This document shows positions 3,149 to 33,602 of a stretch of 38,567 nt of DNA, piece after piece. Origin of the DNA: a virus (taxonomy: Duplodnaviria > Heunggongvirae > Uroviricota > Caudoviricetes); the IMG/VR virus record IMGVR_UViG_2531839486_000019, positions 1 through 38,567 of that record. One strand, 5' to 3'. The stretch's first letter is position 1. The number at the start of each line of letters is the position of its first letter. Made by a program: the position numbers and the translations under genes. The notes below the pieces were generated by a model that was not told the origin of the DNA, ran no database searches, and saw nothing but the letters and a program-made list of their open reading frames with translations.

Positions 3149-3177
3149 TAGTCAAATTACCTTTTGGGTGATATAGT
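3149..3177 (+). promoter_or_regulatory. candidate promoter of the acyltransferase gene with operator-like dyad in the spacer
   Basis: -35-like TAGTCA (3149-3154), 17-bp spacer containing TTACC-TTTTG-GGTGA (3157-3171), -10 TATAGT (3172-3177). Confidence 0.4.
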
Positions 3178-3204
3178 TAATTTCTATACCCCCAAACATT
3201 TACC

Positions 3205-4215
3205 ATGAACATGAAAACATTAAATGGATTAACTATTTTCAGGTTTGTAGCTGCGTTTTATGTATTTATATTTCACTGCAATATCAGATTCCCAGCAGAA
3301 ATTGGTGATTTTCTAAACAGAATTGTTAAGAATGGTGCAATTGGAATGACATTCTTTTTTGTTCTGTCTGGTTTTGTCATGGCATGGTCATCGCAAGGTG
3401 GGGTGAAGTCTGATTATTTTGCGCGTCGCTTAAGGAGAATTTACCCAGCGTATATTTTTATGGGATTGGTGAGTCTCCCATTTATTATTGATTTAAAGCC
3501 ACAGCAAATCGTTCCATCTTTATTAATGTTCATTACTGGAACTCAGGCATGGATACCTTCTTCATTTTCACTATGGAACTTCATTGGTTCGTGGTCGGTA
3601 TCGACTGAGCTATTTTTTTATGCAACGTTCCCTATCTTGTTCCCATTGATTAAGAAAAGACCAGGGGCCTTTCTTCTTTCATCATTGGCTGTAACTTCAC
3701 TGCTGGTTCCGTTCTCTATAATGCTTGGGAGCGGCTCACAGTTCCCTTTGTTCTATGTCAGCCCAATCCACCGGCTACCTGAGTTTATCATTGGCGTATG
3801 CGCTGGGGTTTACTTTACCAATGGGATAAGGTTATCGCGTCGCAATAGTGTTCTCCTTATTGCATTATCATTATTAACATTAACAGTAATATCAACAAGA
3901 ATGAATTCTGGGTTTATGACTATGAATTTATTCACAGTCCCAGCCACTGCCATACTCATTTTTTCTCTTGCATCTTTAAATGTGAGAGATGATGGATTAG
4001 CGGCGCTTCCCATATACTTTGGAAAAATTAGCTACTCTTTCTATTTGATGCAGATACCATTGATAATGTTTATCGAAAAATATCATTACCTGTTTAATGA
4101 TATGAATACGTTATCATGCTGGGTAGGCATGTTTATAGCTAACACAATAATGGCATGCATATCTTATCACTTCGTAGAAGAAGCCTTTATGAAAATGAAA
4201 TACCAATCCGCCTAA
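3205..4215 (+). CDS. acyltransferase family 3 membrane protein (OafA/Oac-like O-antigen acetyltransferase candidate); lysogenic-conversion cargo
   Basis: 336 aa multi-TM protein with N-terminal acyltransferase-3 signature (FRFVAAFYVFIFHC, FFVLSGFV); opposite strand to late genes; AT-rich; next to tailspike. Confidence 0.8.
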   Translation: MNMKTLNGLTIFRFVAAFYVFIFHCNIRFPAEIGDFLNRIVKNGAIGMTFFFVLSGFVMAWSSQGGVKSDYFARRLRRIYPAYIFMGLVSLPFIIDLKPQQIVPSLLMFITGTQAWIPSSFSLWNFIGSWSVSTELFFYATFPILFPLIKKRPGAFLLSSLAVTSLLVPFSIMLGSGSQFPLFYVSPIHRLPEFIIGVCAGVYFTNGIRLSRRNSVLLIALSLLTLTVISTRMNSGFMTMNLFTVPATAILIFSLASLNVRDDGLAALPIYFGKISYSFYLMQIPLIMFIEKYHYLFNDMNTLSCWVGMFIANTIMACISYHFVEEAFMKMKYQSA

Positions 4216-4247
4216 AGTTAACACCCCCTCAATCGAGGGGGGCAAGA

Positions 4248-6536
4248 CTACAGTACAGGGGAAAGTGATACTCTTAACCCGGATGTAGACGATAGGGTTA
4301 AAGAACCAACAGCTTTGATATTGAGAATATCTCCAGTTGTAACAAATTTAACCATGTCTACCGTCTGCCCTGCGGAAGCATTCTCCTCAGAAGCTCCATT
4401 AATGCCAAAAGTTAACGATCCCGAAGATACCCCTCTGGCAAACACAGAAATTCTTACCAGCGCTGGTGCATTGAACTGAATAGTACCTCCGGATAACGCA
4501 GCGTTTGCCGTCCCATTTAACGAAGAGAATGTCACTTCTGCTCCAGATGCGAATGATGTTCCGGTTGTTACGGTTGTCTGACCAAACCCGACCATTCGGT
4601 TTTTAAAACGGTAAGAATCAAGGCTGGTCAAGCTGATATTAGAAAGTCGCGTATTTGCTGATATGTCAAGATATCCTCCAGATTCATTTATCACTCTTGT
4701 GTTAGCCGCATCAGCCAAAATAGTAGATGGCCTCAAGTTTAGCCTTCCTCCTGAAAGAACATGAATGATCCCCTCTGATGTCGAGTCTTGTGTGACATGA
4801 AAAATAGCGCTGAGATTAACATCGATATTTGAATTTGATCCTACGCGTAATATACAAGCAGCTGAACTTTCGCAAGATACATCTCCATAAAACCAACTAT
4901 TGGTTGTCTGAAAACAAGAAGGAGTTGGGGAGGAAGCGGTGTGTTTTTTTATATTTTCAAAAGTCACGCGTTCCAGCTTGCCATTGCCAAAATACTCAAC
5001 CTGCATACCGCGAGTATAACCATTAAATGACAGACGAAACGATACTGAGTTACCACAGTCAAGAGTCGTCGAAAAATGGTCAGCCCAAAGCCCAAAAGAC
5101 AAGACAGGATCGGAGGTTTCAGCAGCCAAGCCTACATGCCTTCCAGCTAATTTACCAAGGAACGCAACGTTAAATCTAATCCCCCCATTAAACCCCCGGC
5201 TGTCGATCTCAATGTCAAAGTCTGCCATATGAGGGGCATAAATCGCCCAGTCAGATTTCATACTTGATTGCAACGTAAAACCTTTGGCTACAATCCCCCT
5301 TGCGAAGGGGGTTGCAGCATTCTGCCGCTTAATGATGACCCCAGCATCCACATCAAAGGGTACAAGGTCACCAACACCAGGATAGGCAAGAGGAGGAATG
5401 CCACTGGTAGTGTTATCAACTTTCACAAATCTGGGTGTAAAAGCTGCATCACTACCTATTGTCATTCCTTCAATGTGATTGTAGTAATCAAGTACGATCG
5501 GTTTTTTATGATAAATAACAGATGTAATGTAAACAATTGAATAACCAAACCTAGATCGGGTAACTGCCTGTGCTATAAAAGCGTCATTTTGCTCTGCAAA
5601 TGATTCATCAATAATTTTTACACCGAATTGCTGAAAATTGTATGTATCCTTCTTCATAAGCCATGCAAATTTTGTTTCGTCGATAACTACTGACCCAGCA
5701 TCCGTATAGTCCTGAAGAGGTGCACCTTCGCTAATAATGTAATCCGCGCCACCTCCGTCGTTTGGCGTATAGTAGCCCAGCGTTCTGCACACCTTCCCGA
5801 CGGCTGGTGCAGTTGAGATCATATCAGCTACGTTCTGAAAGACGTTATCCACTCCACCGATCAGCAAAGACCCATGTGTTGCAGCAAGCTGTATAAGAAC
5901 ATCAGAGGCCGAACCAGAAGGAGGCAGTACGACAAATGGATTACCCGAACTGTCGAAGGCAATCATTTTGTTTGCCCTGGTAGCCGCATCAGGTAGCTGA
6001 GATATAGGATCTGGGACTCGTAACGTGCGACTAAAATTGTTGTTCGCCAGCGTATCAACATAATTCTTGGTGGCCGCATCCTGCGGGTCGCGCGGATCTC
6101 GAAGATTACGGATGTAGTTGTTAAGGGCGTCGTACCAGTTCGCAATGCTGGACGGTTTACGCAGCGCCAGGCGAAACATACTGTAGGCCTGCTGGATCAG
6201 CATCGTCAGCTTATCGAAAGCGTCTTCATGTACCTCAGCGAAGAACTTGCCCTGATTACGCAAATCAGTTTCCTGCGTAACCGGGAGGTCTCGTGATATA
6301 GAAATCTGATAACCGTTAGCCAACGCCTTCGACAGAATTACATTACCGCCGTTGTACCCTCCCGCACCAGTTACTGTGTAATCAGTATCAAGAGCCAGCA
6401 CAGCGATATTTTCATCAAGGTCAACCACCTGAACAACCAGGTCGGATTTTTTGAAAATACGGAAGGTATACGGAAATGATGTCGTAGCGCCGTTACCGGT
6501 GTATTCGTTGTGGTCAACTTCGGTTGAGACCGTCAT
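4248..6536 (-). CDS. tailspike / tail fiber with T7 gp17-like N-terminal anchor domain and large C-terminal receptor-binding (probable depolymerase) domain
   Basis: ATG 6534-6536 with RBS GGAGA 8 nt upstream; N-terminal ~110 aa resemble podovirus tail-fiber N-domain; C-terminal two-thirds AT-rich. Confidence 0.85.
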   Translation of the reverse strand: MTVSTEVDHNEYTGNGATTSFPYTFRIFKKSDLVVQVVDLDENIAVLALDTDYTVTGAGGYNGGNVILSKALANGYQISISRDLPVTQETDLRNQGKFFAEVHEDAFDKLTMLIQQAYSMFRLALRKPSSIANWYDALNNYIRNLRDPRDPQDAATKNYVDTLANNNFSRTLRVPDPISQLPDAATRANKMIAFDSSGNPFVVLPPSGSASDVLIQLAATHGSLLIGGVDNVFQNVADMISTAPAVGKVCRTLGYYTPNDGGGADYIISEGAPLQDYTDAGSVVIDETKFAWLMKKDTYNFQQFGVKIIDESFAEQNDAFIAQAVTRSRFGYSIVYITSVIYHKKPIVLDYYNHIEGMTIGSDAAFTPRFVKVDNTTSGIPPLAYPGVGDLVPFDVDAGVIIKRQNAATPFARGIVAKGFTLQSSMKSDWAIYAPHMADFDIEIDSRGFNGGIRFNVAFLGKLAGRHVGLAAETSDPVLSFGLWADHFSTTLDCGNSVSFRLSFNGYTRGMQVEYFGNGKLERVTFENIKKHTASSPTPSCFQTTNSWFYGDVSCESSAACILRVGSNSNIDVNLSAIFHVTQDSTSEGIIHVLSGGRLNLRPSTILADAANTRVINESGGYLDISANTRLSNISLTSLDSYRFKNRMVGFGQTTVTTGTSFASGAEVTFSSLNGTANAALSGGTIQFNAPALVRISVFARGVSSGSLTFGINGASEENASAGQTVDMVKFVTTGDILNIKAVGSLTLSSTSGLRVSLSPVL

Positions 6537-6614
6537 GTTAAATCTCCAGATAGTCGCAGCACCCGTTGCGCCGCATATCTGGTTATTCTATTACCTGAAA
6601 AACCACATATGGAT

Positions 6615-6656
6615 AGACAACCCATAAATAAGAACAGATATTACCTTTCAGGTGAT
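6615..6656 (+). promoter_or_regulatory. candidate promoter plus operator-like dyad upstream of the 85-aa plus-strand gene
   Basis: -35-like TAGACA (6615-6620), 17-bp spacer, -10-like GATATT (6638-6643) overlapping dyad TTACC-TTTCA-GGTGA (6642-6656). Confidence 0.4.
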
Positions 6657-6731
6657 TCGCAAAACGTGCTGGATAGCAAACAAATTATTTGCTACTGTAT
6701 AAATATACAGTTATTGCATGGAGAAGATAAG

Positions 6732-6989
6732 ATGCAGCAGTATCACTATCCACTGGAAGACGGATTTACCGAAAGGATTCACACGCCGGGAGGCGTCAGA
6801 TCACTAGTGGAGGGATCGCACTTGATGAAATTACTCCGGGATCTCGATAAGGATGGATTTAATGTCGATGGCCCACTTGCCGAACTGACTGCACTGATTA
6901 ACTACGTCACCAGCTCACAGATGTCTATGCAGGATCTGCAAACACATCTCGACTATTGTGCCGAACAATTACGAAAACAAACTACATAA
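6732..6989 (+). CDS. hypothetical 85-aa protein (cargo gene on opposite strand to late genes)
   Basis: internal ATG at 6732 preceded by GGAGAAG; the longer track ORF from 6609 lacks an RBS; TAA at 6987-6989. Confidence 0.5.
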   Translation: MQQYHYPLEDGFTERIHTPGGVRSLVEGSHLMKLLRDLDKDGFNVDGPLAELTALINYVTSSQMSMQDLQTHLDYCAEQLRKQTT

Positions 6990-6990
6990 A

Positions 6991-7012: not shown

Positions 7013-7020
7013 GTGACATG

Positions 7021-19599: not shown

Positions 19600-20592
19600 T
19601 TACACCACGCGGGCTTCTGTTTCCAGAAGCGCATCAGTTTCACGGATTGGTACACCACGGAATGAAGTCCACCACTCGCCTTCTGTCTCTTTTACGCTGA
19701 TCGCCAGAGATGTTTTCTCCAGAGATTGCAGATCAAGAGCCTGGCCTACAGTGCGGTTCATGTAGAACACCGGGCGACCCATGCCACGATTTGGAATGCG
19801 ATGCAGTGCTTTAACCATCAACTTCGCAATATTTGCGGCAGAGGAAGGTTCTGAAAGATTGCTGACATCGATGTTTGCAATGCGAACAACATAACGCCAG
19901 TCACGCAGAGCAAGTCCGTTGTCCCATTTGTAATGGGTACGGTAGCCTTCGTACTTGCCGCCATTCGCATCTTCCAGTGTCACCTGGCCTTTATCTTCCA
20001 TCTGGATGCCAGCCTTCTGCCCTTTCGGGAAGATGCCATGCACGGTGTTTTCGCCCCACACCACTAACCAGATTGAGGTGTTATCTGTACCCGTGCCACC
20101 AGCATCAATGATGTTCTGAGCATTACCCGCAGACAGGCTGGAATAGCGGGAGGACAGTCCCATAAACTGCTGAGGGTTAACGCTGGAATCACCATAAAAC
20201 AGCGTCTGCGCCATCTGCTGATTCATCGCTTCAATAAATGCGCGGTCTTCAGACAGGCGGAATTCGGCGGTATTGCCGTTCAGATCAGCCAGTGACTTAT
20301 CGACTTCAGCATAGGTTTCCAGCATGCCAACGGAATCTGTTACCTGCACTGTGGTTGATTTGCTTGGCTGTACGCCATAGTTCAGCAAACGCCAGGTAGC
20401 TGAAGGTAAACCAGAACGAATGGTGGTTCGGTGTCCGGTAGGAAGGTTCCCTTCGACAAAAGGCATATCCTGAAGGATCGGGTTAGTTTGACCGAGAAGC
20501 TCGATAATCTTATCGACTTTCCCGTTTGGATCGACGCGCTTACCCCAGTCAGCCAGCGTTAGCGCAGTTAAGCCTTTAACAGCCATTGTCAT
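19600..20592 (-). CDS. major capsid protein (T7 gp10-like)
   Basis: 330 aa after the scaffold gene; RBS GAGAGG favours the start at Met3 (20584-20586). Confidence 0.8.
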   Translation of the reverse strand: MTMAVKGLTALTLADWGKRVDPNGKVDKIIELLGQTNPILQDMPFVEGNLPTGHRTTIRSGLPSATWRLLNYGVQPSKSTTVQVTDSVGMLETYAEVDKSLADLNGNTAEFRLSEDRAFIEAMNQQMAQTLFYGDSSVNPQQFMGLSSRYSSLSAGNAQNIIDAGGTGTDNTSIWLVVWGENTVHGIFPKGQKAGIQMEDKGQVTLEDANGGKYEGYRTHYKWDNGLALRDWRYVVRIANIDVSNLSEPSSAANIAKLMVKALHRIPNRGMGRPVFYMNRTVGQALDLQSLEKTSLAISVKETEGEWWTSFRGVPIRETDALLETEARVV

Positions 20593-23285: not shown

Positions 23286-23492
23286 TTACTGACCAAGCAG
23301 CGTTTTACCGCTGGTATTAGCGGTTGATGTGTCGCCCTGAGAACCGGTAAGCAGCGTAGAACTACGACCAGCAGCAGCGCGACGGCGACGAGTTTCTTCG
23401 TCGCGGGCATCAACAACGGCGGCATCCTGCTCCTGTGGTGCTGCCTGAACTTCTGGTGTTGCAGGCACTGACGGTGAGCTACCCATGCACAT
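23286..23492 (-). CDS. hypothetical small acidic low-complexity protein upstream of portal
   Basis: ATG 23490-23492 with GGAG 8 nt upstream; low-complexity sequence, so weakly supported. Confidence 0.3.
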   Translation of the reverse strand: MCMGSSPSVPATPEVQAAPQEQDAAVVDARDEETRRRRAAAGRSSTLLTGSQGDTSTANTSGKTLLGQ

Positions 23493-23560
23493 ATCAATGA
23501 CTCCGTACGCAATTAAATTATTACCAATTTAACCACATATGATTTATTTATCGTAGATAG

Positions 23561-23597
23561 TTGACATTTAACGCACAAATTATTACCTTTCAGGTAA
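23561..23597 (+). promoter_or_regulatory. candidate plus-strand promoter with operator-like dyad driving the tRNA operon
   Basis: perfect -35 TTGACA (23561-23566); dyad TTACC-TTTCA-GGTAA (23583-23597) over the -10 region; exact -10 hexamer ambiguous. Confidence 0.4.
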
Positions 23598-23919
23598 GCA
23601 AAGGGTTCATTCCGGTTATTAACCTGACTGGCTTGTCGTTAAATTGAACAGGTGGAGTGAGCTTTTATTTTGAGCAGTACGGCGTATGGCACATGCGCCG
23701 ATAGCGGTCTGGATACGTTTAAGGGGCACCCTCCCTTGCTCGGGCAAACGAACCAGGTAGCCGGAATGTGCAAGTCGAGCGGTTTTATTCCGCGCACGGG
23801 GATTCACCATCCCGGCGATTCGGTGTGACACCTCGGAAGAGACGAGGGTACAACGATGAGAGCATTTATGGAGCCGCGACAAAGTGTGGCGCCTTAACAG
23901 GCTAAGTGCTCTCAGCGTT

Positions 23920-23996
23920 GTGGCATTAGCTCAGTTGGACAGAGCAACCGCCTTCTAAGCGGTTGGTCGCAGGTTCGAATCCTGCATGCCACGCCA
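23920..23996 (+). tRNA. tRNA-Arg (anticodon UCU), phage-encoded
   Basis: 77-nt cloverleaf: acceptor GTGGCAT/ATGCCAC, D-stem GCTC/GAGC, anticodon stem ACCGC/GCGGT with loop CTTCTAA, T-arm GCAGG-TTCGAAT-CCTGC, discriminator G, encoded CCA. Confidence 0.85.
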
Positions 23997-24039
23997 GAAT
24001 CACGCCTAAGGACCGTGATGCCAGAAGTTCCAGGTGCTT

Positions 24040-24081
24040 GGCGGTGATGGTTTCCCTTGAAGGACTATCACCGCCCTTTTT
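24040..24081 (+). terminator. rho-independent terminator downstream of the tRNA
   Basis: stem ggcggtgat (24040-24048) / atcaccgcc (24067-24075) followed by CTTTTT. Confidence 0.5.
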
Positions 24082-24159
24082 ACAGCAGGACGCCATTGCG
24101 ATGACTTCATGCTGTAAACCCGTACAGCCACGGAAGGCATAACTCATTGCTTCCAGTTC

Positions 24160-24183
24160 GCCCGGTTCGCCGGGCATTTTTTT
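24160..24183 (+). terminator. second terminator-like hairpin ending 12 nt before the 123-aa gene start (attenuator candidate)
   Basis: stem gcccgg / ccgggc with ttcg loop, then A + TTTTTTT (24177-24183); RBS AAGGTGAGA follows directly. Confidence 0.45.
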
Positions 24184-24656: not shown

Positions 24657-26132
24657 TTAAGCATACGGGTCATAATCTGTGATGGCCTTGCCTTGCTGGT
24701 TCTGCTGCCCAGGAATTCGCAGACGCTTCGACACAGGGAAAGCAAACGTCAGCAGTAGCGCATCGCCTTTACCCGGCGAACGCCCAAGTCGCTCTTTGAT
24801 ATCTTCCTTCGGTTCGATAACGATTTTACCGTCCACTCGAACTTTATACTCTGCCGCCGACAGGTCGTCCGCTGTTTCCTGGTCATCCAGCATCCCGCCG
24901 AGCCTCAGCCATGTCTTACATGAGTTGAACATCTCCCCACGCTTGTTAAGCATCTGCGGGTCAGTGGACGCACCGCCGAACGGAACAAGTTGCCATGTAC
25001 GTCCCCAGCCATCACCGATTGACTTCAGACCAGTTCCGTAACCGAAGTCGATGAACACTGCGTCAGCCTGGTACTGGTCTTCAAAGTCAGCGATACGCTT
25101 CGCCATTATCAGATCGTCAGTGGTCTTGTTGCCAGTCCATAGCACCTTACTATGCAACCCCTGCCGCAGGTATATCACCGCGTCATCAACGCCTGAATAT
25201 GCCGGGTCAACACCGATTATCACCGGAGCATGTGCCACCTGCGCAGCGGTTACCACCCGTTTCATTGCCTCATCAGTAAGACCGGTAGGGATAAACTGCA
25301 ATTCAGATGCATCAGGGAATATGCCGCGCACACGGATTTTAACGAAGTCGCTGTCTTCCCCGTAGTCATCAACCCATTTCTGCAACTGCTGTTTGTTAGT
25401 ACCTTCCACCGTCCGGCTGTCTATCTGCGCACACTTCCAGCGGTGCTTGTATTTGCGGAAGCATTCACGGAATCGCCCGGTATTACGCGTCGGGTTTCCG
25501 AACGCCACCCAAATAATCTCAGTGTCTTCGTCCGTAAGCGCACCCTCAGCAACTTCCCACACCAGATCCGCAATGTTCGACGCTTCATCAAACACCACGA
25601 TGATGCGTTTGCGCTCGTTGTGTAGTCCCGCGAACGCCTCAGTGTTGTGCTCAGACCAGGGGATTGCGTCAGCTCGCCACCGCTTGTCGTGCCCAGGATC
25701 ATTGCTGTACATCGCGGTAGCGGTACAGGTAAACCAGTCTTTCGTGATAGCAAGGTTCGACCACTTGATAATTTCCGGCCAGGTCTTCGTTCGTAGCTGG
25801 TTGTCGGTGTTGGCGGTCACCACGACCTTACAATCCTCGCAAGTGGACATGCCCCAGTTGATCAGCATTGAGATGAATGCGGATTTACCAATACCGTGAC
25901 CAGAAGCGCGTGCCAGCATAAGCGGCTGATAACGCGTCTCTGGATTCTGCAGGTGATCACGTATCTCTCGGAACGCATCGGCCTGCCACTGACGTGGGCC
26001 GGTAGCATGTGCCAGTTCAGTCCCCTCTTCCCCCCACGGGAACGCATAGAGGGCATAGCCAAGCGGATCGTGAGTGAACCCTGCAATATCCTCGATTAAC
26101 TGCTCTTCAGGAGATAACGCTGTATCTGTCAC
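24657..26132 (-). CDS. terminase large subunit
   Basis: 491 aa with N-terminal ATPase (Walker A-like GHGIGKS) and C-terminal nuclease-like region; GTG start overlaps small-subunit stop (GTGA). Confidence 0.9.
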   Translation of the reverse strand: MTDTALSPEEQLIEDIAGFTHDPLGYALYAFPWGEEGTELAHATGPRQWQADAFREIRDHLQNPETRYQPLMLARASGHGIGKSAFISMLINWGMSTCEDCKVVVTANTDNQLRTKTWPEIIKWSNLAITKDWFTCTATAMYSNDPGHDKRWRADAIPWSEHNTEAFAGLHNERKRIIVVFDEASNIADLVWEVAEGALTDEDTEIIWVAFGNPTRNTGRFRECFRKYKHRWKCAQIDSRTVEGTNKQQLQKWVDDYGEDSDFVKIRVRGIFPDASELQFIPTGLTDEAMKRVVTAAQVAHAPVIIGVDPAYSGVDDAVIYLRQGLHSKVLWTGNKTTDDLIMAKRIADFEDQYQADAVFIDFGYGTGLKSIGDGWGRTWQLVPFGGASTDPQMLNKRGEMFNSCKTWLRLGGMLDDQETADDLSAAEYKVRVDGKIVIEPKEDIKERLGRSPGKGDALLLTFAFPVSKRLRIPGQQNQQGKAITDYDPYA

Positions 26133-26725
26133 TGATTACCATCCTGACGTTCTTTGAGTCGCTTCCTGGCTGCTGCTATGCGATCAGCAATTGTCACATT
26201 CACATTAACATCCAGACGTTCTTTGAACGCGTTGACATCAACATGCTTACCAATCAGCTCAAGGTTCTTCACCTTGTCCGGCCATTTGATTTTTTTGAGG
26301 ATTGTCTCTATCGAATCCTCGTTCATGTTCATGATGGTCGATGACAGATCAAAGCCGCTAAGCGTAGTGCGCCAGATTTTCGGCCACTCGCGGATTGGTT
26401 TAAGGCTCCCATCGTCGTTGAGGATGTCGATCACGTCCATCTGGTCGATCTCCACCAGGCGCATGAGAACGTAATCAGCACTGACGCGCATTCGTTTGTT
26501 GCGTTCCTCCATCAGCTCGGCAATCCGTTTCTGAATGCGTTCATCTCGCATCATGACACTGGCTTTAACTGCCGCTGTATTTGGGGAGAATCCTGCGTTA
26601 ATCGCTGCCTGAGTCTGGTTTTCAGGCGTTTTGATGTATGACTGGCAATAAGCCTCCTGCATTGCTGTTAGTGGCTTAAATTGCGTTGATTTGCGTTTAT
26701 AGGTTTTAGTTTCAGCAGGCATCAT
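26129..26725 (-). CDS. terminase small subunit
   Basis: start moved to ATG 26723-26725 (MMPAETK...); the upstream 26 track codons translate a tandem DNA repeat and are unlikely coding. Confidence 0.7.
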   Translation of the reverse strand: MMPAETKTYKRKSTQFKPLTAMQEAYCQSYIKTPENQTQAAINAGFSPNTAAVKASVMMRDERIQKRIAELMEERNKRMRVSADYVLMRLVEIDQMDVIDILNDDGSLKPIREWPKIWRTTLSGFDLSSTIMNMNEDSIETILKKIKWPDKVKNLELIGKHVDVNAFKERLDVNVNVTIADRIAAARKRLKERQDGNQ

Positions 26726-26732
26726 AACCACC

Positions 26733-26764
26733 GTGGTAATAGTTACCGTTGTGGTAATAGTACC
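26733..26764. repeat. tandem direct repeat GTGGTAATAG(T)TACC x2 immediately upstream of the terminase small gene
   Basis: copies at 26733-26747 and 26751-26764; each is itself a GGTAA...TTACC dyad. Confidence 0.6.
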
Positions 26765-26768
26765 ATGC

Positions 26769-26794
26769 AAAATAAAGCCGCCATAGTTGGCGGC
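26769..26794 (-). terminator. hairpin plus T-run (minus strand) just upstream of the terminase operon
   Basis: stem gccgcca / tggcggc with tagt loop; on the minus strand it is followed by TTTATTTT. Confidence 0.45.
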
Positions 26795-26843
26795 AGTATT
26801 CAAAACACATCAAATTCATCATGCATAATCTACTCGTGACATG

Positions 26844-29432: not shown

Positions 29433-30007
29433 TGGTTGCCTCCTTTGCGAAGCTGTTCAGCAATACTTACGCATATCTCTGCGCCTCTAATCAGCCCCGG
29501 AACGTTCTTGTTTGGCCCAACTTCACCATCAACAAAATCAATCATCGCGTTACGAGCCATATCCACGCCCTGCGCCCGTACTTCAGCCAGGAAAGCGTCG
29601 GTGGCTGGGGTGTCTGATTGCAGAGACTTTGCGCGATAGTCATTCCACCCCCTTGCATACATGGGATTAACTTGCACTCCATCTTTTACGCAATATGCCT
29701 GCCCTCCACGGTTGATAACCTTGATTTCGTCCATAGCGCCAGACTTCAGCCCCGCATTCTCCGCCGCCAGCGCCGAAAACTTCTCGTGTGCCAACTTAAC
29801 AGCCGCATCAGCCTGCTTAATTGACTCAATCGCTTTCTGCTGGTCTTCGGCCAGCTCATTAGCACGCACCAGTTGCACTTCCAGTTGCGTTGCCAAATCG
29901 CTGATCAGATTTGCCACACTGCGCATATCAACGGCACCACATTCTGCTTTCAGTTCCGAAGCCATCTCATGCCCGGCGGAAACTAACCCTTTGATATTAC
30001 TTTCCAT
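29429..30007 (-). CDS. hypothetical protein
   Basis: 192-aa ORF in the nin-like region. Confidence 0.5.
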   Translation of the reverse strand: MESNIKGLVSAGHEMASELKAECGAVDMRSVANLISDLATQLEVQLVRANELAEDQQKAIESIKQADAAVKLAHEKFSALAAENAGLKSGAMDEIKVINRGGQAYCVKDGVQVNPMYARGWNDYRAKSLQSDTPATDAFLAEVRAQGVDMARNAMIDFVDGEVGPNKNVPGLIRGAEICVSIAEQLRKGGNQ

Positions 30008-30068
30008 CTTTACCCTCGCTTATCCACATAACTTATTGATTACATTGATAACTAAAAAGATCGTCGAT

Positions 30069-30416
30069 TCAGAACTCTTCGATGTTCCAGCCGCCACCTG
30101 CTTTCTTTGGTTTAACCGTTACCCCGATGATTCGGAACGGATACTGATCTGCGGCTACTTTGGTTTTCACCCTGGCGTCGTCGGTCCAGAATCCCCCTTT
30201 CACTTCGTGCAGTTCCATCTCTCCGGTGGCGAGCATCACAGCGAAATCGGGCGTATAGAACGTGTTGTCAGCTAACCGCAGCTTGATACCCTCGAATCGA
30301 TACCAGGCGATTTCCCCTGCACGTTTACGCAGCTCAAGGTGCTGGCAATACGCAGATTCTGTTTTGTTCATCTGATCTGTTTTGAGTCGACCAAGAGCCT
30401 GTATCTGTTTTCTCAT
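30069..30416 (-). CDS. putative PD-(D/E)xK-type nuclease (small resolvase-like protein)
   Basis: YTPDF ... ELHEVKG motif spacing consistent with PD-(D/E)xK; ATG 30414-30416 with GAGGT SD lying inside dyad 30420-30434. Confidence 0.5.
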   Translation of the reverse strand: MRKQIQALGRLKTDQMNKTESAYCQHLELRKRAGEIAWYRFEGIKLRLADNTFYTPDFAVMLATGEMELHEVKGGFWTDDARVKTKVAADQYPFRIIGVTVKPKKAGGGWNIEEF

Positions 30417-30419
30417 GAT

Positions 30420-30496
30420 TTACCTCTGAGGTAATTAAAAACCACATAAGACACGAAATCAATAGATTTTAGAATATTTTATTACCTAACAGGTAA
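30420..30496 (+). promoter_or_regulatory. regulatory module between the P-like gene and nin genes: two operator-like dyads flanking AACCACATA
   Basis: TTACC-TCTGA-GGTAA (30420-30434); AACCACATA (30440-30448); TTACC-TAACA-GGTAA (30482-30496). Confidence 0.45.
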
Positions 30497-30533
30497 TTGT
30501 CGAGGCGTAAAAAAATGCGCTATCGCGCTGGTA

Positions 30534-31334
30534 TTACTTGATAAATCCTGCCGCCTTTCCTCGCCTGTATTCCTCCATCAGCCACTGCGCCGGTGTTATT
30601 CCACCAAGGGTGGCGGCGTTAGGCATGCACCCGAAACTTCGCCCTGGTGGATGGTAAACGTCTCTCCCTGTGTCCGGAGGTGTACTCATGGGTTCTGGCT
30701 TTGCCTGTATGCTGATCACCGGATCGGGTATCTGCTGTCCGGAAGCCACCTTTTTCGCCCAATCATCGAGCAGCCTGCGCGCGTGTTTCTCAACCTCAAT
30801 CTCGCTAAGCTGGCGCTGATACATTGCACGGCGGGTATCACATACGACCCAGTACATAACCGGATGTCGCCACGGGAATCTTTCGGGACCACCAGGATAT
30901 AAACTTTTTTCCTTGCTGTACCGGTTAAACTCCGCCATCACATCGTCAATGGTGACGCCAAGAACCATCTTGCTGTCTTTACACCACTTGATGAATTGCC
31001 CAGGCGACGGCCAGAACGGAGATTCACTGGCGCGGGCGTGGCGCATACCAGCAGAAACCTGTTCACGGGTTCGGATCCCCCCTTCGGCAAACGCAGCAAT
31101 CCACTGCTGTTTTGCAGCAACTTCCTGCTCTGGCGTCTTCAGGTTGGTTACCACTGCCGCCGGAAACAGTTGTTTCAGCTGTTTGAAAAGGGCATCAACA
31201 AGCCTCTCTGCTGACATGTTCACCACGTTATCATTGTTGGTGTACTGATGCTCATAACCTGACATGCGAGAAAGGGCTTCTCCGTCACGGTTTTGTATCG
31301 CGGTAAAAACGTTGTTCACAAGAAATCCTCCCAT
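30534..31334 (-). CDS. replication protein P-like (lambda P family helicase loader)
   Basis: QQWIAAFAEGGIRTREQVSAGMRHARASESPFWPSPGQFIKWCKD closely matches remembered lambda P region RQWVLAFRENGITTMEQVNAGMRVARRQNRPFLPSPGQFVAWCRE. Confidence 0.8.
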   Translation of the reverse strand: MGGFLVNNVFTAIQNRDGEALSRMSGYEHQYTNNDNVVNMSAERLVDALFKQLKQLFPAAVVTNLKTPEQEVAAKQQWIAAFAEGGIRTREQVSAGMRHARASESPFWPSPGQFIKWCKDSKMVLGVTIDDVMAEFNRYSKEKSLYPGGPERFPWRHPVMYWVVCDTRRAMYQRQLSEIEVEKHARRLLDDWAKKVASGQQIPDPVISIQAKPEPMSTPPDTGRDVYHPPGRSFGCMPNAATLGGITPAQWLMEEYRRGKAAGFIK

Positions 31335-32131
31335 GCTTCAGGGCTGTTCCAGTGCGGAACGTTGTTATCAGGTAATGTTGATTGCTTCTGTCTGCTAATC
31401 TGCAGCCTCCTTGCCAGCTTCTGCTCCCACTGTGCCTGATGGTATGCCTTACCCTCAGCCATCCAGTAAATTCTGAACTCTGCAAGTTCCTGTGCCGTTG
31501 GCAGACTGTCCAGGTAGATCCCCTGCAATGAGCTTTTCCGAAGAAAGTCATCTGATGGCTGCCATTGTTCATGCATGACAAATTTGCCTAATTGCCCTGG
31601 CCCACCAGGAGGAACAAAGTTATTCATCACGGCGTTGTTTGCGCCGGGGTCATGAGGCACAGAATCCCCGCTTTTTGTCCTGCTCTCCCTCTCTTGGTTA
31701 AATGACTGGTTATATGACTGGTTCTGGATCCCGTTTTTGGGATCATTCAACATCCCGTTTTTGGGATCATTCAACATCCCGTTTTTGGGTATATTCCCGT
31801 TTTCGGGTATATTCCCGTTTTCTGGTTCATTGCCCCCCTCCCGGTTGCCTTTAATGTTCCCGTTTTTGGTTATATTAAGAGAGAAAACCCGCACTCTTTT
31901 TGTCGCTCCCTTTCTATCTCCGGTATCTGAAATAAGCCCCATTTTCATGAGCGATATAAGCCCGGCCTGCACGGTTTTTTTATTCAGGCAAGTGTCTTTA
32001 ACGAGTCGTTCTATGCTGGGGTAGCAGAGGTTATATTCATCGGCTCTGTCAGCCATCGAGAGCAGTATGAGCTTTAATGATGAGCTGCCTGGATCTGTCT
32101 CCCAGGCCCAATCTGTTGCATGTCTGCTCAT
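31316..32131 (-). CDS. replication initiator (lambda O-like) with origin iterons inside the gene
   Basis: N-terminal HTH-like domain, central peptide repeats (NGNIPENGNIPKNGMLNDPKNGMLNDP) encoded by DNA iterons, followed by the P-like gene. Confidence 0.7.
   Translation of the reverse strand: MSRHATDWAWETDPGSSSLKLILLSMADRADEYNLCYPSIERLVKDTCLNKKTVQAGLISLMKMGLISDTGDRKGATKRVRVFSLNITKNGNIKGNREGGNEPENGNIPENGNIPKNGMLNDPKNGMLNDPKNGIQNQSYNQSFNQERESRTKSGDSVPHDPGANNAVMNNFVPPGGPGQLGKFVMHEQWQPSDDFLRKSSLQGIYLDSLPTAQELAEFRIYWMAEGKAYHQAQWEQKLARRLQISRQKQSTLPDNNVPHWNSPEAWEDFL
31703..31890. repeat. putative origin of replication: iteron array plus AT-rich tract
   Basis: ATGACTGGTT x2 (31703-31724); GGATCATTCAACATCCCGTTTTTG x2 (31741-31788) with partial copy at 31727-31740; GGTATATTCCCGTTTTC x2 (31789-31825); CCCGTTTT core six times; AT-rich 31871-31890. 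Confidence 0.65.
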
Positions 32132-32146
32132 GATTAATCTCCGCTA

Positions 32147-32347
32147 TCAGCTTGAATGTTGTGGGGGGGAATTAATCATGATCTGCTTAATCTCTGCCCT
32201 GATGCGACGGTTTGATTCCATGGTGCACTCAACACAGTGTCCGTTGTAAACCCAGCGTTCACTGTCATGTCCGTGCTTACATGGTTTTCCGGTGTAGTAG
32301 CGTTTAAGTCCGCGCTTTGCGGCATCAATACGTGTAATGATTTCCAT
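32147..32347 (-). CDS. small zinc-ribbon protein (position of lambda cII; function unknown)
   Basis: ATG 32345-32347 (MEIITRIDAAKRGLKRYYTGKPCKHGHDSERWVYNGHCVEC); my reading of the displayed bases at 32402-32410 does not reproduce the first three residues of the track ORF, so the longer start is not used. Confidence 0.4.
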   Translation of the reverse strand: MEIITRIDAAKRGLKRYYTGKPCKHGHDSERWVYNGHCVECTMESNRRIRAEIKQIMINSPPQHSS

Positions 32348-32426
32348 GGTAAGCCCTGTTATTAGTATTGGGATTACGGTTATTTTGTGCTGACACAAAA
32401 AAAAGATCAACCAAATTTGGTTTTTT

Positions 32427-32441
32427 ATTACCTTTGAGGTG
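32427..32441. promoter_or_regulatory. operator-like dyad between the Cro-like gene and the next early gene
   Basis: TTACC-TTTGA-GGTGA; preceded by perfect palindrome AACCAAATTTGGTT. Confidence 0.4.
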
Positions 32442-32497
32442 AGAATAGATATGAAAAGACCGCCGGATGACGGTCTACAGAGGGTTGTGGCTGGATA

Positions 32498-32728
32498 TCA
32501 TGAGTAGAAGAAGTATGCCAGTTCTGCTTTTGAGCGCAGCCATTGTCTTGTTTTACAGGCTTTAAAAAGCCCATTCATCAATACCTTACCTGGCATTTTG
32601 CGCTTACCTGTTAAGTGAGTCTGGATATAGTGACTCGTCGTTCCGGCTTCCTGTGCGAAGGCTTCACGCTCATCCGGAGTAAGTGCAAGCCAGTGCTTTT
32701 TGAAATCGAAATGTCCGTTATCGCTCAT
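32498..32728 (-). CDS. Cro-like HTH regulator (YdaS/Cro family)
   Basis: 76 aa, ATG 32726-32728; HTH-like segment DEREAFAQEAGTTSHYIQTHLTGKR; divergent from the CI-like gene. Confidence 0.6.
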   Translation of the reverse strand: MSDNGHFDFKKHWLALTPDEREAFAQEAGTTSHYIQTHLTGKRKMPGKVLMNGLFKACKTRQWLRSKAELAYFFYS

Positions 32729-32773
32729 AGCTATTGCCTGATATTTATTTCAGATAATAAATATTCACCCATA

Positions 32774-32827
32774 AGGTAACAAAAATCAAGGATAGTTACC
32801 TATGGGGTGCATTTACCTGTTGGGTAA
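32774..32827. promoter_or_regulatory. right operator-like region between the divergent Cro-like and CI-like genes
   Basis: inverted repeat AGGTAAC-N14-GTTACCT (32774-32801) and dyad TTACC-TGTTG-GGTAA (32813-32827). Confidence 0.45.
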
Positions 32828-32882
32828 TATTGCTTTAAATTGAATCATCTACTGATTCATATATGAGGCGATTTTCCAGAAA

Positions 32883-33467
32883 ATGAAAAGTATCCAGGAC
32901 GTCCGCAGGCAAAATCTCAACGACTTGATCGACCGTGAATTCAATGGTGTTCAGACGCGGATGGCAGAAAAACTTGGAACTCAGGCAAATCTGGTAAACC
33001 GCTGGGCTCTTGGCAAGAAGGTTATCGGCGACCAGGTTGCGCGAAAAATTGAAGCTGCCGCCAATAAACCCCGTAACTGGCTTGATATCGATCGCTCGCT
33101 TTCTCAGGAAGGTTTTCAGCCTGTCGGCCCAAGCGACATTGGTCAGCTGGCGGCTCACAACCTGGAACGCTGGATGAGCGAAAGCCGCGACCTTTCAACA
33201 CAGGGAAAACTTCACCGCGCATCCGGCGTCGCCCAGGTGACAATCAGCCGCCTGTTAAACAATGAGGTCAGCGTTTCCATTTCCACCCTGGAGAATGTTG
33301 CATCTGCATTCGGGCGTCACGGATATGAACTACTGATTCACCCGCACGACCCTGCAACTATCAACTATGACCGCTCGCGCTACGCATTATTACCTGAAAC
33401 CGAGAAAGCAAAGATCGAAAGTTACATTGAATTTGTCATCAACCAGAACGAAAAAAACAAACAATAA
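32883..33467 (+). CDS. CI-like repressor candidate with HTH domain(s) and no recognisable LexA/S24 cleavage domain
   Basis: XRE-type HTH (GVQTRMAEKLGTQANLVNRWALGKK) and a second HTH-like stretch; no Ala-Gly/Ser-Lys peptidase motifs seen; divergent from Cro-like gene. Confidence 0.55.
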   Translation: MKSIQDVRRQNLNDLIDREFNGVQTRMAEKLGTQANLVNRWALGKKVIGDQVARKIEAAANKPRNWLDIDRSLSQEGFQPVGPSDIGQLAAHNLERWMSESRDLSTQGKLHRASGVAQVTISRLLNNEVSVSISTLENVASAFGRHGYELLIHPHDPATINYDRSRYALLPETEKAKIESYIEFVINQNEKNKQ

Positions 33468-33488
33468 AATCATATTTTTCAGTAAGTA

Positions 33489-33512
33489 AGCCGCCAAATG
33501 GCGGCTTTTTTT
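33489..33512 (+). terminator. rho-independent terminator after the CI-like gene
   Basis: stem agccgcc / ggcggct with aaat loop, then TTTTTT. Confidence 0.65.
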
Positions 33513-33525
33513 ATTGTCTTTTTAA

Positions 33526-33602
33526 TTACCTTACAGGTAATTTTTTTAACTCATATCTATTGACATCAAACCAAATACGCATAATTATTACCTCAACGGT
33601 AA
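33526..33602 (+). promoter_or_regulatory. pL-like early-left promoter with two operator-like dyads
   Basis: dyad TTACC-TTACA-GGTAA (33526-33540); -35 TTGACA (33560-33565); 17-bp spacer; -10 AATTAT (33583-33588) overlapped by dyad TTACC-TCAAC-GGTAA (33588-33602). Confidence 0.5.

What the first reader, a model, noticed from the sequence alone, without database searches (positions are those of the whole stretch)
3157..33602. Fifteen-bp dyad TTACC-N5-GGT(A/G)A at nine intergenic sites, including the immunity region and cargo-gene promoters
The same dyad geometry occurs at 3157-3171, 6642-6656, 23583-23597, 30420-30434, 30482-30496, 32427-32441, 32813-32827, 33526-33540 and 33588-33602. Every copy is intergenic and several overlap candidate -35/-10 elements. 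Two flank the CI-like gene on either side, as lambda oR and oL do, so the simplest reading is the operator of this prophage's repressor or Cro. What is unusual is that the same element also sits in the promoters of plus-strand cargo genes inside the late region (acyltransferase, 85-aa gene, tRNA operon), which would tie them to the immunity circuit.
Basis: partly seen in the sequence, partly recalled or inferred. Interest (0 to 1): 0.72.

Follow-up and report, generated by a model that had tools for sequence, protein, structure and literature searches.

The report
Repressor operators of a phiV10-like prophage
The repeated 15-bp palindrome is real and is almost certainly the binding site of this prophage's own repressor, but the same sites are already annotated in the sister phage epsilon15 and the repressor/antirepressor pair has been solved structurally in Salmonella phage SPC32H, so this is a known immunity circuit and not a new element.

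Summary
TTACC-N5-GGT(A/G)A occurs at 11 exact sites, not 9, against 0.03 expected. Two degenerate copies abut exact ones. All exact sites lie in the 6.4% of the window that is non-coding.

The window is a phiV10/epsilon15-like (Uetakevirus) prophage, about 98% identical to sequenced phages. The epsilon15 GenBank record already annotates this dyad as "protein_bind: repressor" at orthologous positions. The 194-aa repressor is a homologue of SPC32H Rep (PDB 5D50). It is 100% identical to the vB_EcoP_ZX5 repressor, whose overexpression shuts off lytic transcription.

The same sites, in the same places and with the same 17/18-bp and 62-bp spacings, recur in eight lineages from Escherichia, Salmonella, Enterobacter, Klebsiella and Serratia.

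The "cargo promoter" idea is only partly right. The 85-aa gene is the Ant antirepressor, preceded by a perfect LexA box. The acyltransferase site does sit inside an extended -10 promoter, and the tRNA site follows an invariant TTGAC.

Verdict: a real, well-conserved Rep operator regulon that is already known in kind. Low novelty.

The parts
32883..33467 (+). rep: a 194-aa repressor with two HTH domains and no S24 peptidase domain.
   Evidence: phmmer E 4e-42 to SPC32H Rep, PDB 5D50_A. Pfam finds HTH families only. It is 100% identical to the phiV10 and ZX5 repressors. The recognition helix NLVNRW is invariant.
32498..32728 (-). A 76-aa cro-like gene, divergent from rep. It is a possible second binder of the same dyad.
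   Evidence: It is 58-84% identical across the genus, with an invariant HTH-like segment AGTTSHYIQ.HLT. It has no Pfam hit.
32765..32779 (.). O_R1-like operator (TCACC...GGTAA), inside the spacer of the minus-strand promoter for the cro-like gene.
   Evidence: Exact match. The promoter scan finds TTGTTA-17-TATTAT at 32782-32754. The site and the adjacent AAAAATCAA (TTGATT on the minus strand) are invariant in six genomes.
32796..32810 (.). O_R2-like degenerate operator (TTACCTATGGGGTGC), 17 bp from O_R3.
   Evidence: One mismatch to the pattern. It is a perfect site in epsilon15, SPC32H and BUCT711 at the same 17-bp spacing.
32813..32827 (.). O_R3-like operator next to rep. It overlaps the candidate rep promoter -35 (TTTACC at 32812-32817).
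   Evidence: Exact match. The TTTACC, GGTAATAT and TTTAAATT blocks are invariant. The promoter assignment is inferred.
33588..33602 (.). O_L1-like operator covering the +1 position of the rightward early promoter P_L.
   Evidence: The promoter scan finds TTGACA-17-AATTAT at 33560-33588. The CTATTGAC block and the operator are invariant in six genomes.
33526..33540 (.). O_L2-like operator, 62 bp upstream of O_L1, just after the rep terminator (33488-33507).
   Evidence: The spacing is 62 bp in five genomes and 63 bp in BUCT711.
32428..32442 (.). An isolated operator after the cro-like gene's terminator (32476-32457) and before the next early gene.
   Evidence: Orthologous copies with 1-2 mismatches occur in phiV10 (33112), epsilon15 (33729), Tyrion (35365) and BUCT711 (6032). 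No sigma-70 promoter was found here.
30482..30496 (.). An operator that fills the spacer of the minus-strand promoter TCGACA-16-TAAAAT.
   Evidence: The promoter scan scores 10 of 12 matches at 30503-30476. GGTAATAAAAT is invariant in six genomes.
30420..30434 (.). An operator at the +1 position of a second minus-strand promoter (TTGATT 30462-30457, TTTAAT 30439-30434). Its GAGG also serves as the ribosome-binding site of the DUF1064 gene (ATG at 30416).
   Evidence: Sequence. CTATTGA, the operator and ATCATG are invariant. The 62-bp spacing to 30482 holds in all six genomes.
26743..26757 (.). An operator between the terminator of the early-right operon (26794-26777) and terS.
   Evidence: It is orthologous to the epsilon15 site at 12-27, which is annotated 'protein_bind repressor'.
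26725..26739 (.). A degenerate partner operator 18 bp away, abutting the terS ATG (26725/26722).
   Evidence: The same 18-bp pair occurs in phiV10 (87/105), epsilon15 (12/30) and Tyrion (67/85).
23583..23597 (.). An operator in the divergent region between the portal operon (minus strand, ATG at 23492) and the tRNA unit (plus strand). It lies 16 nt downstream of an invariant TTGACA (23561-23566).
   Evidence: It is orthologous to the epsilon15 site at 2931-2947, which is annotated as repressor binding.
23920..23996 (+). tRNA-Arg(TCT), the likely product of the plus-strand unit that starts at the 23561 promoter.
   Evidence: ARAGORN and Rfam at 73 bits. A terminator lies at 24040-24075.
6641..6655 (.). 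An operator in the middle of the divergent region between the tailspike gene (minus strand) and ant (plus strand).
   Evidence: It is orthologous to the epsilon15 site at 19895-19911, which is annotated as repressor binding.
6693..6711 (.). LexA (SOS) box TACTGTATAAATATACAGT upstream of ant.
   Evidence: It is unique in the window, with 0 expected. CTGT...ACAG is conserved in six genomes. SPC32H and SPC32N differ by a G-to-T change in this box.
   Evidence: phmmer E 1.3e-47 to PDB 5D50 chain E, 'Anti-repressor protein'.
3157..3171 (.). An operator in the divergent region between the lysis cassette (minus strand) and oac (plus strand). Its GGTGA half supplies the TG of an extended -10 (TG-a-TATAGT, 3169-3177) that reads toward oac.
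   Evidence: The arrangement of operator, then TGA, then a -10-like hexamer is kept in four of five genomes even though the conversion genes differ.
3205..4215 (+). oac: the O-antigen acyltransferase (lysogenic conversion gene).
   Evidence: Pfam Acyl_transf_3, E 1e-27. The phiV10 record annotates it as 'O-acetyltransferase ... superinfection immunity'.

Best explanation
The dyads are the operators of the Uetakevirus (epsilon15, phiV10, SPC32H) repressor Rep, encoded at 32883-33467. Two HTH N-terminal domains would contact the TTACC and GGTAA half-sites, whose centres are 10 bp, or one helical turn, apart.

In the lysogen, Rep sits on sites that overlap promoters:
- the leftward early promoter P_L, with the operator at +1;
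- the cro-side promoter P_R, with the operator in the spacer;
- two tandem promoters of the distal early-right operon at 30434-30503, one with the operator in the spacer and one with it at +1.

Rep also sits on accessory sites that overlap no promoter. These lie just after terminators (before terS, and after the cro-like gene) or about 62-77 bp upstream of transcription starts.

Rep of SPC32H is reported to bind DNA as a tetramer in which each palindrome is read by domains from different dimers. The recurrent pairs, 17-18 bp apart or exactly 62 bp (about six turns) apart, therefore probably let one tetramer hold two operators and clamp the promoter between them. This step is inferred.

Induction works through Ant (6732-6989), which LexA represses via the SOS box at 6693-6711. 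DNA damage removes LexA, Ant is made, and Ant dismantles the Rep tetramer.

The three late-region sites lie in divergent regions. The oac site should make the conversion promoter Rep-sensitive, because the operator lies in the spacer of an extended -10 promoter. The tRNA site probably occludes a TTGACA promoter. The ant/tailspike site overlaps neither core promoter and is probably an auxiliary anchoring site.

Shown here: the sites, their positions, their conservation, and the protein homologies. Inferred: actual binding, which promoters fire, and looping.
For: 1. Enrichment and placement. There are 11 exact sites against 0.03 expected, and all are non-coding.

2. Prior annotation. The epsilon15 GenBank record annotates the identical 17-bp dyad as 'protein_bind, repressor, lysogeny' at seven places. 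These coincide with motif hits and are orthologous to window sites 26743, 23583, 6641, 33526/33588 and 30482.

3. Protein identity. Rep matches SPC32H Rep, PDB 5D50_A, at E 4e-42. The 85-aa protein matches Ant, 5D50_E, at E 1.3e-47.

4. Published behaviour of SPC32H Rep. PMC9638917 summarises it as binding palindromic sites as a tetramer, with the DNA-binding pairs coming from different dimers, and with tetrameric Ant breaking the tetramer.

5. Experiment on the identical protein. The ZX5 repressor is 100% identical to the window's. Its overexpression abolished free phage and cut holin and endolysin mRNA by 99.97-99.99%. Antirepressor overexpression lowered rep mRNA by 75% (PMC9782041).

6. 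Phylogenetic footprint. In six genomes whose Reps are down to 42% identical, the half-sites are invariant, the spacers vary, and the positions and the 17/18/62-bp spacings are kept. The same holds next to Serratia and variant E. coli Rep homologues.

7. Recognition helix. N-L-V/I-N/S-R-W is conserved in all 86 homologues found.

8. Promoter overlap.
Against: - No binding experiment could be read or run. The primary papers (Kropinski 2007; Kim & Ryu 2013; Kim et al. 2016) are not in the held library.
- The Cro-like protein is at least as conserved as Rep and could be the binder, or a co-binder, at some sites.
- Neither helix nor half-site varies anywhere in the family, so covariation cannot assign the dyad to Rep rather than Cro.
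- An operator inside the oac promoter predicts repression in lysogens. Yet the phiV10 record says Oac acts in superinfection immunity, which implies lysogenic expression. This is unresolved.
- SPC32H and SPC32N differ only by a change in the LexA box and one tailspike base. If SPC32N is the non-lysogenising variant, as I recall but could not check, then the Rep site upstream of ant does not suffice to silence ant.
- No sigma-70 promoter was found at the terS site or the 32428 site, so their role (roadblock or looping anchor) is a guess.
Confidence: 0.85

Rival explanations
1. The dyad is primarily the site of the 76-aa Cro-like protein (32498-32728), which shuts down transcription units during lytic growth. 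On this reading Rep recognises something else, or only the subset of sites around its own gene.
For: The Cro-like protein is more conserved than Rep (58-84% against 43-78% identity to the window protein). It carries an invariant HTH-like segment. In lambdoid phages Cro and CI share operators, which is established knowledge. Covariation cannot separate the two proteins.
Against: The epsilon15 record assigns the sites to the repressor. SPC32H Rep is reported to bind palindromic operators as a tetramer. The paired-site geometry fits a tetramer with two DNA-binding units. Overexpressing Rep alone silences lysis genes. The Cro-like protein has no Pfam hit, so its DNA binding is only inferred.
Confidence: 0.07
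2. The late-region copies (3157, 6641, 23583, 26743) regulate the minus-strand late operons (lysis, tailspike, portal/head, terminase), not the plus-strand oac, ant and tRNA units. Rep would then silence late genes directly, as a second lock.
For: Each copy sits about 70-77 bp upstream of the inferred start of a conserved late promoter. That promoter has a CATATGTGGTT box followed 7 nt later by a -10-like element. The geometry resembles O_L2, which lies 62 bp upstream of the P_L start. The terS pair precedes a minus-strand gene only. BUCT711 lacks both the conversion gene and a separate lysis promoter, and it also lacks this site. Rep overexpression removes holin and endolysin mRNA, although that could be indirect.
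Against: None of these operators overlaps the late -10 or the box. The oac copy overlaps a plus-strand extended -10 precisely, and does so in four of five genomes with different cargo. The tRNA copy follows an invariant TTGAC on the plus strand. The distances from the operators to the half-site-bearing late promoters are 49, 53 and 61 bp, which is not one helical phase.
Confidence: 0.3
3. The dyad is not a protein operator. It would instead be an RNA hairpin (a 5-6 bp stem with a 5-nt loop) acting in transcripts, or the site of a host factor.
For: Two copies would be transcribed: 33588 at the +1 of P_L, and 30420, which covers the ribosome-binding site. The epsilon15 record places IHF and RNase III sites near some copies.
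Against: Most copies lie upstream of, or within, promoter spacers and occur in both orientations. The stem is too short to be stable. Conservation falls on the half-sites with a free spacer apart from a central A/T, which is typical of a DNA dyad read by an HTH dimer. The motif does not match any E. coli regulator site that I can recall (own knowledge). Rfam finds nothing but the tRNA.
Confidence: 0.02

Closest known systems
Repressor-binding sites of Salmonella phage epsilon15 (GenBank AY150271, 'protein_bind ... repressor ... lysogeny'; Kropinski et al. 2007, Virology 369:234, not readable here)
   Same: The half-sites, the 5-bp spacer and the A/T flanks are identical. The positions are orthologous: upstream of terS, upstream of gp3/portal, between gp19 (ant) and the tailspike gene, downstream of rep, and upstream of the distal early-right operon. 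The 62-bp pairing is the same.
   Different: The host and the cargo differ. Rep is only 42-43% identical. The epsilon15 record annotates 7 of its 12 exact sites and omits the O_R triplet, the conversion/lysis site and the second site of the 35907/35969 pair. epsilon15 has three O_L sites where the window has two.
Rep-Ant-LexA antirepression switch of Salmonella phage SPC32H (PDB 5D50 and 5D4Z; Kim & Ryu 2013 J Virol; Kim et al. 2016 PNAS)
   Same: The window has homologous Rep (E 4e-42) and Ant (E 1.3e-47, nearly identical over 84 residues). An SOS box lies upstream of ant. Rep has no S24 autocleavage domain. The same dyads occur at the same places in the SPC32H genome.
   Different: The window's Rep is about 42% identical to SPC32H Rep, although Ant is highly conserved. 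I could not read which operators were tested experimentally in SPC32H.
Lambda O_R/O_L operators with CI and Cro
   Same: The repressor and cro-like genes are divergent, with a three-site operator region between them. A second operator set lies on the other side of the repressor gene at the leftward early promoter. The operators overlap -35/-10 elements.
   Different: Rep is not a CI/LexA-type protein, because it has no S24 peptidase domain. Induction is by an antirepressor, not by RecA-stimulated cleavage. The operator is 15 bp with 17-bp site spacing. Additional operators are scattered over the whole genome.
Dispersed operators of other temperate phages: the P1 C1 operators and the mycobacteriophage L5 gp71 'stoperators' (own knowledge, not tested here)
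   Same: One repressor has many sites spread through the genome. Some sites lie away from the immunity region, and some are not in promoters. Here those are the sites just after terminators, at terS and at 32428.
   Different: The P1 and L5 sites are asymmetric, and L5 stoperators depend on orientation. Here the site is a symmetric dyad, only about 13 sites exist, and most overlap or flank promoters.

Membership tests
Uetakevirus (epsilon15/SPC32H-type) Rep operator regulon | A Rep homologue with an N-terminal HTH DNA-binding domain and a C-terminal HTH-like oligomerisation domain | tested here: met
   E 4e-42 over residues 1-190 to PDB 5D50_A. Pfam finds HTH_3 at residues 106-147 and a YdaS-like HTH at 21-61.
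Uetakevirus (epsilon15/SPC32H-type) Rep operator regulon | The dyad (A)TTACC-N5-GGTAA(T), identical to the sites annotated as repressor-binding in epsilon15 | tested here: met
   The annotated epsilon15 features at 12-27, 2931-2947, 19895-19911, 32479-32494, 32554-32570, 32616-32632 and 35906-35922 coincide with motif hits. The window has 11 exact copies.
Uetakevirus (epsilon15/SPC32H-type) Rep operator regulon | Sites at orthologous genome positions with conserved spacing (17/18 bp and 62 bp) | tested here: met
   Six genomes were compared site by site (alignments). Two further prophages agree.
Uetakevirus (epsilon15/SPC32H-type) Rep operator regulon | An Ant antirepressor under LexA control | tested here: met
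   The Ant homologue matches at E 1.3e-47. A perfect SOS box lies at 6693-6711 and is conserved in six genomes.
Uetakevirus (epsilon15/SPC32H-type) Rep operator regulon | Physical binding of Rep to the dyads | not testable with these tools
   Only indirect support is available: the annotation, a secondary literature summary, and repression by overexpressing the identical protein.
Lambda CI-type repressor/operator system | A repressor with a C-terminal S24 (LexA-like) autocleavage domain | tested here: not met
   Pfam finds only HTH families in the 194-aa protein. The best solved relative is SPC32H Rep, not CI.
Lambda CI-type repressor/operator system | A tripartite operator between divergent repressor and cro genes, plus a second operator set at the leftward promoter | tested here: met
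   Sites 32765, 32796 and 32813 lie between the cro-like gene and rep. Sites 33526 and 33588 lie at P_L.
L5-type stoperators | Asymmetric, orientation-dependent sites inside transcription units that block elongation | tested here: not met
   The sites are symmetric dyads and all are intergenic. Only the terS pair and 32428 lie downstream of terminators without a promoter, and elongation block was not testable.

The most novel reading that the evidence does not exclude
Rep may be a whole-genome gatekeeper in which one tetramer bridges two operators. Two spacings would serve this: 62 bp, about six helical turns, clamping a promoter between the sites, or 17-18 bp. A conserved operator built into an extended -10 promoter would form a fixed 'regulatory socket' into which different lysogenic-conversion genes have been swapped: oac here, other acyltransferases, a gtrA-like gene, and epsilon15 genes 21/22. 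Surface-modifying cargo, the tRNA and the antirepressor would then all be tuned directly by the immunity repressor. The whole family, across five host genera, would share a single operator specificity and so be mutually immune. The evidence shows the geometry and its conservation. It does not show binding, looping, or the direction of regulation.
Probability: 0.3. Interest if true: 0.45.

Novelty: already known. Interest (0 to 1): 0.17.

Why it matters
This finding mainly shows that the first-stage reader can recover a true operator regulon from raw sequence. It does not reveal a new kind of element. The prophage is about 98% identical to sequenced phages. Its repressor is identical to that of phiV10 and ZX5. 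The dyad is already annotated as the repressor site in epsilon15.

A few modest, testable points remain:
- whether the conversion gene (oac), the tRNA unit and ant respond directly to Rep;
- whether the strictly conserved 62-bp operator pairs reflect bridging by a single tetramer;
- whether all Uetakeviruses share one immunity specificity.

These points matter to people who engineer phiV10 or SPC32H reporter phages, or who study O-antigen conversion. They would not change general understanding.

Tried and rejected
1. Primary literature. Kropinski 2007 (PMC2698709), Kim & Ryu 2013, Kim et al. 2016 (PMC4983836) and Perry 2009 are not held. Full-text searches found no paper that describes these operators. 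What I say about those papers is from memory or from secondary citations.

2. Covariation between the Rep recognition helix and the half-site, to decide between Rep and Cro. All 86 homologues keep N-L-V/I-N/S-R-W. The two most divergent loci fetched (Serratia L087, E. coli variant L088) keep TTACC-N5-GGTAA. The test is therefore uninformative.

3. A viral-contig scan for diverse relatives. It returned 80 loci that all encode the 100% identical Rep. That shows the prophage is common, but it adds no diversity.

4. The idea that the half-site-bearing late promoters act as pseudo-operators paired with the full operators. Their distances are 49, 53 and 61 bp, which is not one helical phase, so I dropped it.

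5. Sigma-70 promoters at the terS pair and at 32428. None is convincing.

6. The plus-strand promoter TAGACA-17-GATATT at 6614-6642, which would put the ant-side operator at +1. Its -35 is not conserved in relatives, so I rejected it.

7. Rfam. It finds only the tRNA.

8. A genome-wide count in the host. This was not possible, because the motif has too few specified bases for collection scans.

Full report
**Observation.** A search for TTACCNNNNNGGTRA finds 18 strand matches, which are 11 distinct sites. Shuffled sequence gives a mean of 0.03. Seven coordinates are exact, and two are off by one base (6641-6655 and 32428-32442). Two exact sites were missed (26743-26757 and 32765-32779).

Allowing one mismatch adds two copies that sit right beside exact ones. 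One is 26725-26739, 18 bp from 26743. The other is 32796-32810, 17 bp from 32813.

I built a gene map from the phiV10, epsilon15 and SPC32H annotations. On that map all 11 exact sites lie in the 2,463 non-coding bases, 6.4% of the window, with none in coding DNA. The probability is about 7e-14, and shuffling the non-coding DNA alone gives 0.0065 sites.

Two sites needed a check on gene starts:
- Site 6641 lies inside a mechanical ORF (6609-6989), but upstream of the real start at 6732.
- Sites 26743 and 26725 lie inside the terS CDS as drawn in the phiV10 record (a TTG start). They are upstream of the ATG used in epsilon15, SPC32H and Tyrion.

Pooling 43 sites from four genomes, the half-sites are invariant apart from T/C at position 2. 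The central base is A or T in 84 of 86 symmetrised observations.

**What the window is.** Bases 1 to about 1100 are E. coli chromosome (yfgH, yfgI). The rest is a phiV10/epsilon15-like podovirus prophage of the genus Uetakevirus, in the opposite orientation to the phiV10 record. It is 96.8-98% identical to phages PAS61, phiV10 and phiv142-3 across the immunity region.

The 194-aa protein at 32883-33467 is 100% identical to the repressors of phiV10, ZX5 and many others, and to at least 80 IMG/VR contigs. It is a clear homologue of Rep of Salmonella phage SPC32H, PDB 5D50 chain A (E 4e-42). It has HTH domains only and no S24 peptidase domain.

**Prior knowledge.** The epsilon15 GenBank record (AY150271) carries seven 'protein_bind / repressor / lysogeny' features. 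Each coincides with a hit of this same dyad. They lie upstream of terS, upstream of gp3/portal, between gp19 and the tailspike gene, downstream of the repressor gene (three sites), and upstream of the distal early-right operon. These are the orthologues of window sites 26743, 23583, 6641, 33526/33588 and 30482. So both the element and its scattering into the late region have already been described for the sister phage.

A secondary source (PMC9638917) summarises the SPC32H work. Rep binds palindromic sites as a tetramer, the two DNA-binding domains on each palindrome come from different dimers, and tetrameric Ant breaks the tetramer.

The ZX5 paper (PMC9782041) used the identical repressor. 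Overexpression abolished free phage and cut holin and endolysin mRNA by 99.97-99.99%. Antirepressor overexpression lowered rep mRNA by 75%.

The primary papers themselves could not be read.

**Conservation.** I compared the window with phiV10, epsilon15, SPC32H, Enterobacter phage Tyrion and Klebsiella phage BUCT711. Their Reps are 100, 43, 43, 78 and 44% identical to the window's. The dyad is enriched in each, and it falls into the same classes:
- a pair 18 bp apart before terS;
- one site between the portal operon and the tRNA/ncRNA unit;
- one site between tailspike and ant;
- one site between the lysis cassette and the conversion gene, absent only in BUCT711, which has neither a conversion gene nor a separate lysis promoter;
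- two or three sites downstream of rep;
- three sites between rep and the cro-like gene, spaced 17 and 30-31 bp;
- one site after the cro-like terminator;
- a pair before the distal early-right operon;
- a one-mismatch site about 45 bp upstream of int, which lies just outside this window.

The pair downstream of rep and the early-right pair are 62 bp apart in every genome, with 63 bp in one case.

The alignments show invariant half-sites with freely varying spacers and flanks. Two further prophages show the same dyads and the same spacings. One is from Serratia (Rep 54% identical, recognition helix NLISRW). The other is an E. coli variant (helix NLVSRW).

The recognition helix N-L-V/I-N/S-R-W is kept in all 86 homologues found. 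This ties the dyad to the Rep/Cro module very tightly. It also means there is no covariation with which to separate Rep from the equally conserved Cro-like protein.

**Anatomy of the early-region sites.**
- P_L. The promoter is TTGACA (33560) -17- AATTAT. The operator at 33588 starts at the last base of the -10 and covers +1. Its partner at 33526 is 62 bp upstream, just after the rep terminator.
- P_R, on the minus strand. The operator at 32765 fills the spacer, with either TTGTTA-17-TATTAT or the invariant TTGATT as the -35.
- The rep side. The operator at 32813 overlaps an invariant TTTACC, a candidate -35. The degenerate site at 32796 would be centred near -45, which resembles lambda P_RM. 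This is inference.
- The distal early-right operon has two tandem minus-strand promoters. One is TCGACA-16-TAAAAT, with the operator at 30482 as its spacer. The other is TTGATT-17-TTTAAT, with the operator at 30420 at +1. That operator's GAGG also serves as the ribosome-binding site of the DUF1064 gene.
- Sites 32428 and 26743/26725 follow terminators and have no recognisable promoter. They may be roadblocks or looping anchors. This is a guess.

**The 'cargo' sites.**

1. The 85-aa gene at 6732-6989 is the Ant antirepressor (E 1.3e-47 to 5D50 chain E). A perfect SOS box, TACTGTATAAATATACAGT, lies at 6693-6711 and is conserved in all six genomes. The dyad lies 38 bp upstream of the box and overlaps neither the ant core promoter nor the tailspike core promoter. 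SPC32H and SPC32N differ only by a G-to-T change in the CTGT of this box and by one tailspike base. I recall, but could not verify, that SPC32N is the variant that does not lysogenise. If so, LexA and not Rep is the effective lock on ant.

2. The oac site at 3157 supplies the TG of an extended -10 (TG-a-TATAGT, 3169-3177) that reads toward oac. The same arrangement of operator, then TGA, then a -10-like hexamer is present in phiV10, SPC32H and Tyrion. In epsilon15 a TAAAAT overlaps the half-site instead. The downstream conversion genes differ throughout. It also predicts repression of a gene that the phiV10 record says works in lysogens. Partial occupancy of an isolated, imperfect site is one way out, and this point is unresolved.

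3. The tRNA site at 23583 lies 16 nt after an invariant TTGAC. It is upstream of a 320-nt structured leader and tRNA-Arg(TCT). The implied -10 is weak.

All three sites also lie 70-77 bp upstream of the inferred starts of conserved late promoters on the other strand. The target strand therefore cannot be settled by sequence alone.

**Mechanism.** The best-supported reading, at about 0.85, is that Rep, probably with the Cro-like protein sharing the sites, binds these dyads. Rep would silence P_L, P_R and the distal early-right promoters by occlusion. Paired sites would give a tetramer two contacts. LexA-controlled Ant would dismantle Rep on SOS induction.

What is shown: the motif statistics, the placement, the conservation, and the protein homologies. 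What is inferred: binding, promoter identities, bridging across 62 bp, and the direction of control at the divergent late regions.

**Comparison and novelty.** The element works like lambda O_R/O_L in layout, but Rep is not a CI-family protein, because it has no S24 domain and is induced by an antirepressor. It is a member of the epsilon15/SPC32H Rep-Ant-LexA system on every feature I could test. Its dispersed sites recall the P1 C1 operators and the L5 stoperators. They differ from both in being symmetric and mostly associated with promoters.

The same dyad is already annotated in epsilon15, and the proteins are structurally characterised. I therefore rate the finding as already known, with low interest.

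The residual open points are direct Rep control of the conversion promoter, the fixed 62-bp clamp, and a single operator specificity across five host genera. They are modest, and they are listed with the experiments that would decide them.

Noticed in passing
window 31695-31826: There is an iteron-like array inside the DnaT-like replication gene (31316-32131). About five copies of the palindromic unit TCCCGTTTT(T/C)GGGAT/TAT occur with 24- and 18-bp periods. They are preceded by 2.4 copies of TGGTTAAATGAC. This is probably the phage replication origin.
   Followed up: partly
window 6601-6611, 23531-23541, 3114-3124 (read on the minus strand): A conserved 'late box', CATATGTGGTT followed 7 nt later by a -10-like hexamer, lies upstream of the tailspike gene, the portal operon and, more loosely, the lysis cassette. 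In the first two the downstream part contains an invariant Rep half-site, GGTAAT. This is probably the target of an unidentified late activator.
   Followed up: partly
window 6693-6711: A perfect LexA box lies upstream of the antirepressor gene. In Salmonella phages SPC32H and SPC32N the only differences in 38,689 bp are a G-to-T change in the CTGT of this box and one base in the tailspike gene.
   Followed up: yes
window 23598-24177: A 320-nt leader before tRNA-Arg(TCT) (23920-23996) folds better than shuffled sequence (z -3.2), but Rfam finds no family in it. The phiV10p04-like ORF (23926-24177, minus strand) is antisense to the tRNA and is probably not a gene.
   Followed up: partly
window 26129-26803: The phiV10 record starts terS at a TTG, which puts two operator copies inside the CDS. 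The ATG at 26725/26722 gives a protein of about 198 aa that matches the starts annotated in epsilon15, SPC32H and Tyrion, so the phiV10 start looks too far upstream.
   Followed up: partly
window 32409-32422: A perfect 14-bp palindrome, AACCAAATTTGGTT, lies five bases from the operator at 32428. Related AACCA motifs lie near other operators, in the P_L spacer at 33569 and at 30440. Their function is unknown.
   Followed up: no
L001 26870-26884; L002 26882-26896; L003 26960-26974; L004 28568-28582 (just beyond the window's right end): A conserved one-mismatch copy, TTACCTTAAAGGTAT, lies about 45 bp upstream of the integrase start codon in all relatives. The integrase promoter is therefore probably part of the same regulon. 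The window ends at the int start codon, so this copy is not in it.
   Followed up: no
window 3052-3125: The 5' leader of the lysis cassette is almost invariant across five genomes, more conserved than the neighbouring coding sequence. It corresponds to an 'RNaseIII, mRNA processing' feature in the epsilon15 record.
   Followed up: no
window 1-1100: The left end of the window is host chromosome (yfgH, yfgI), present in 5,422 of 5,426 complete E. coli genomes. The prophage junction lies between about 1100 and 1266.
   Followed up: partly
Rep family (P0001-P0086; L087, L088): The recognition helix and the operator half-sites are unchanged in all homologues, down to 42-54% identity, from Escherichia, Salmonella, Enterobacter, Klebsiella, Citrobacter and Serratia. 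The whole family appears to share one operator specificity, unlike the hypervariable immunity regions of lambdoid phages.
   Followed up: partly
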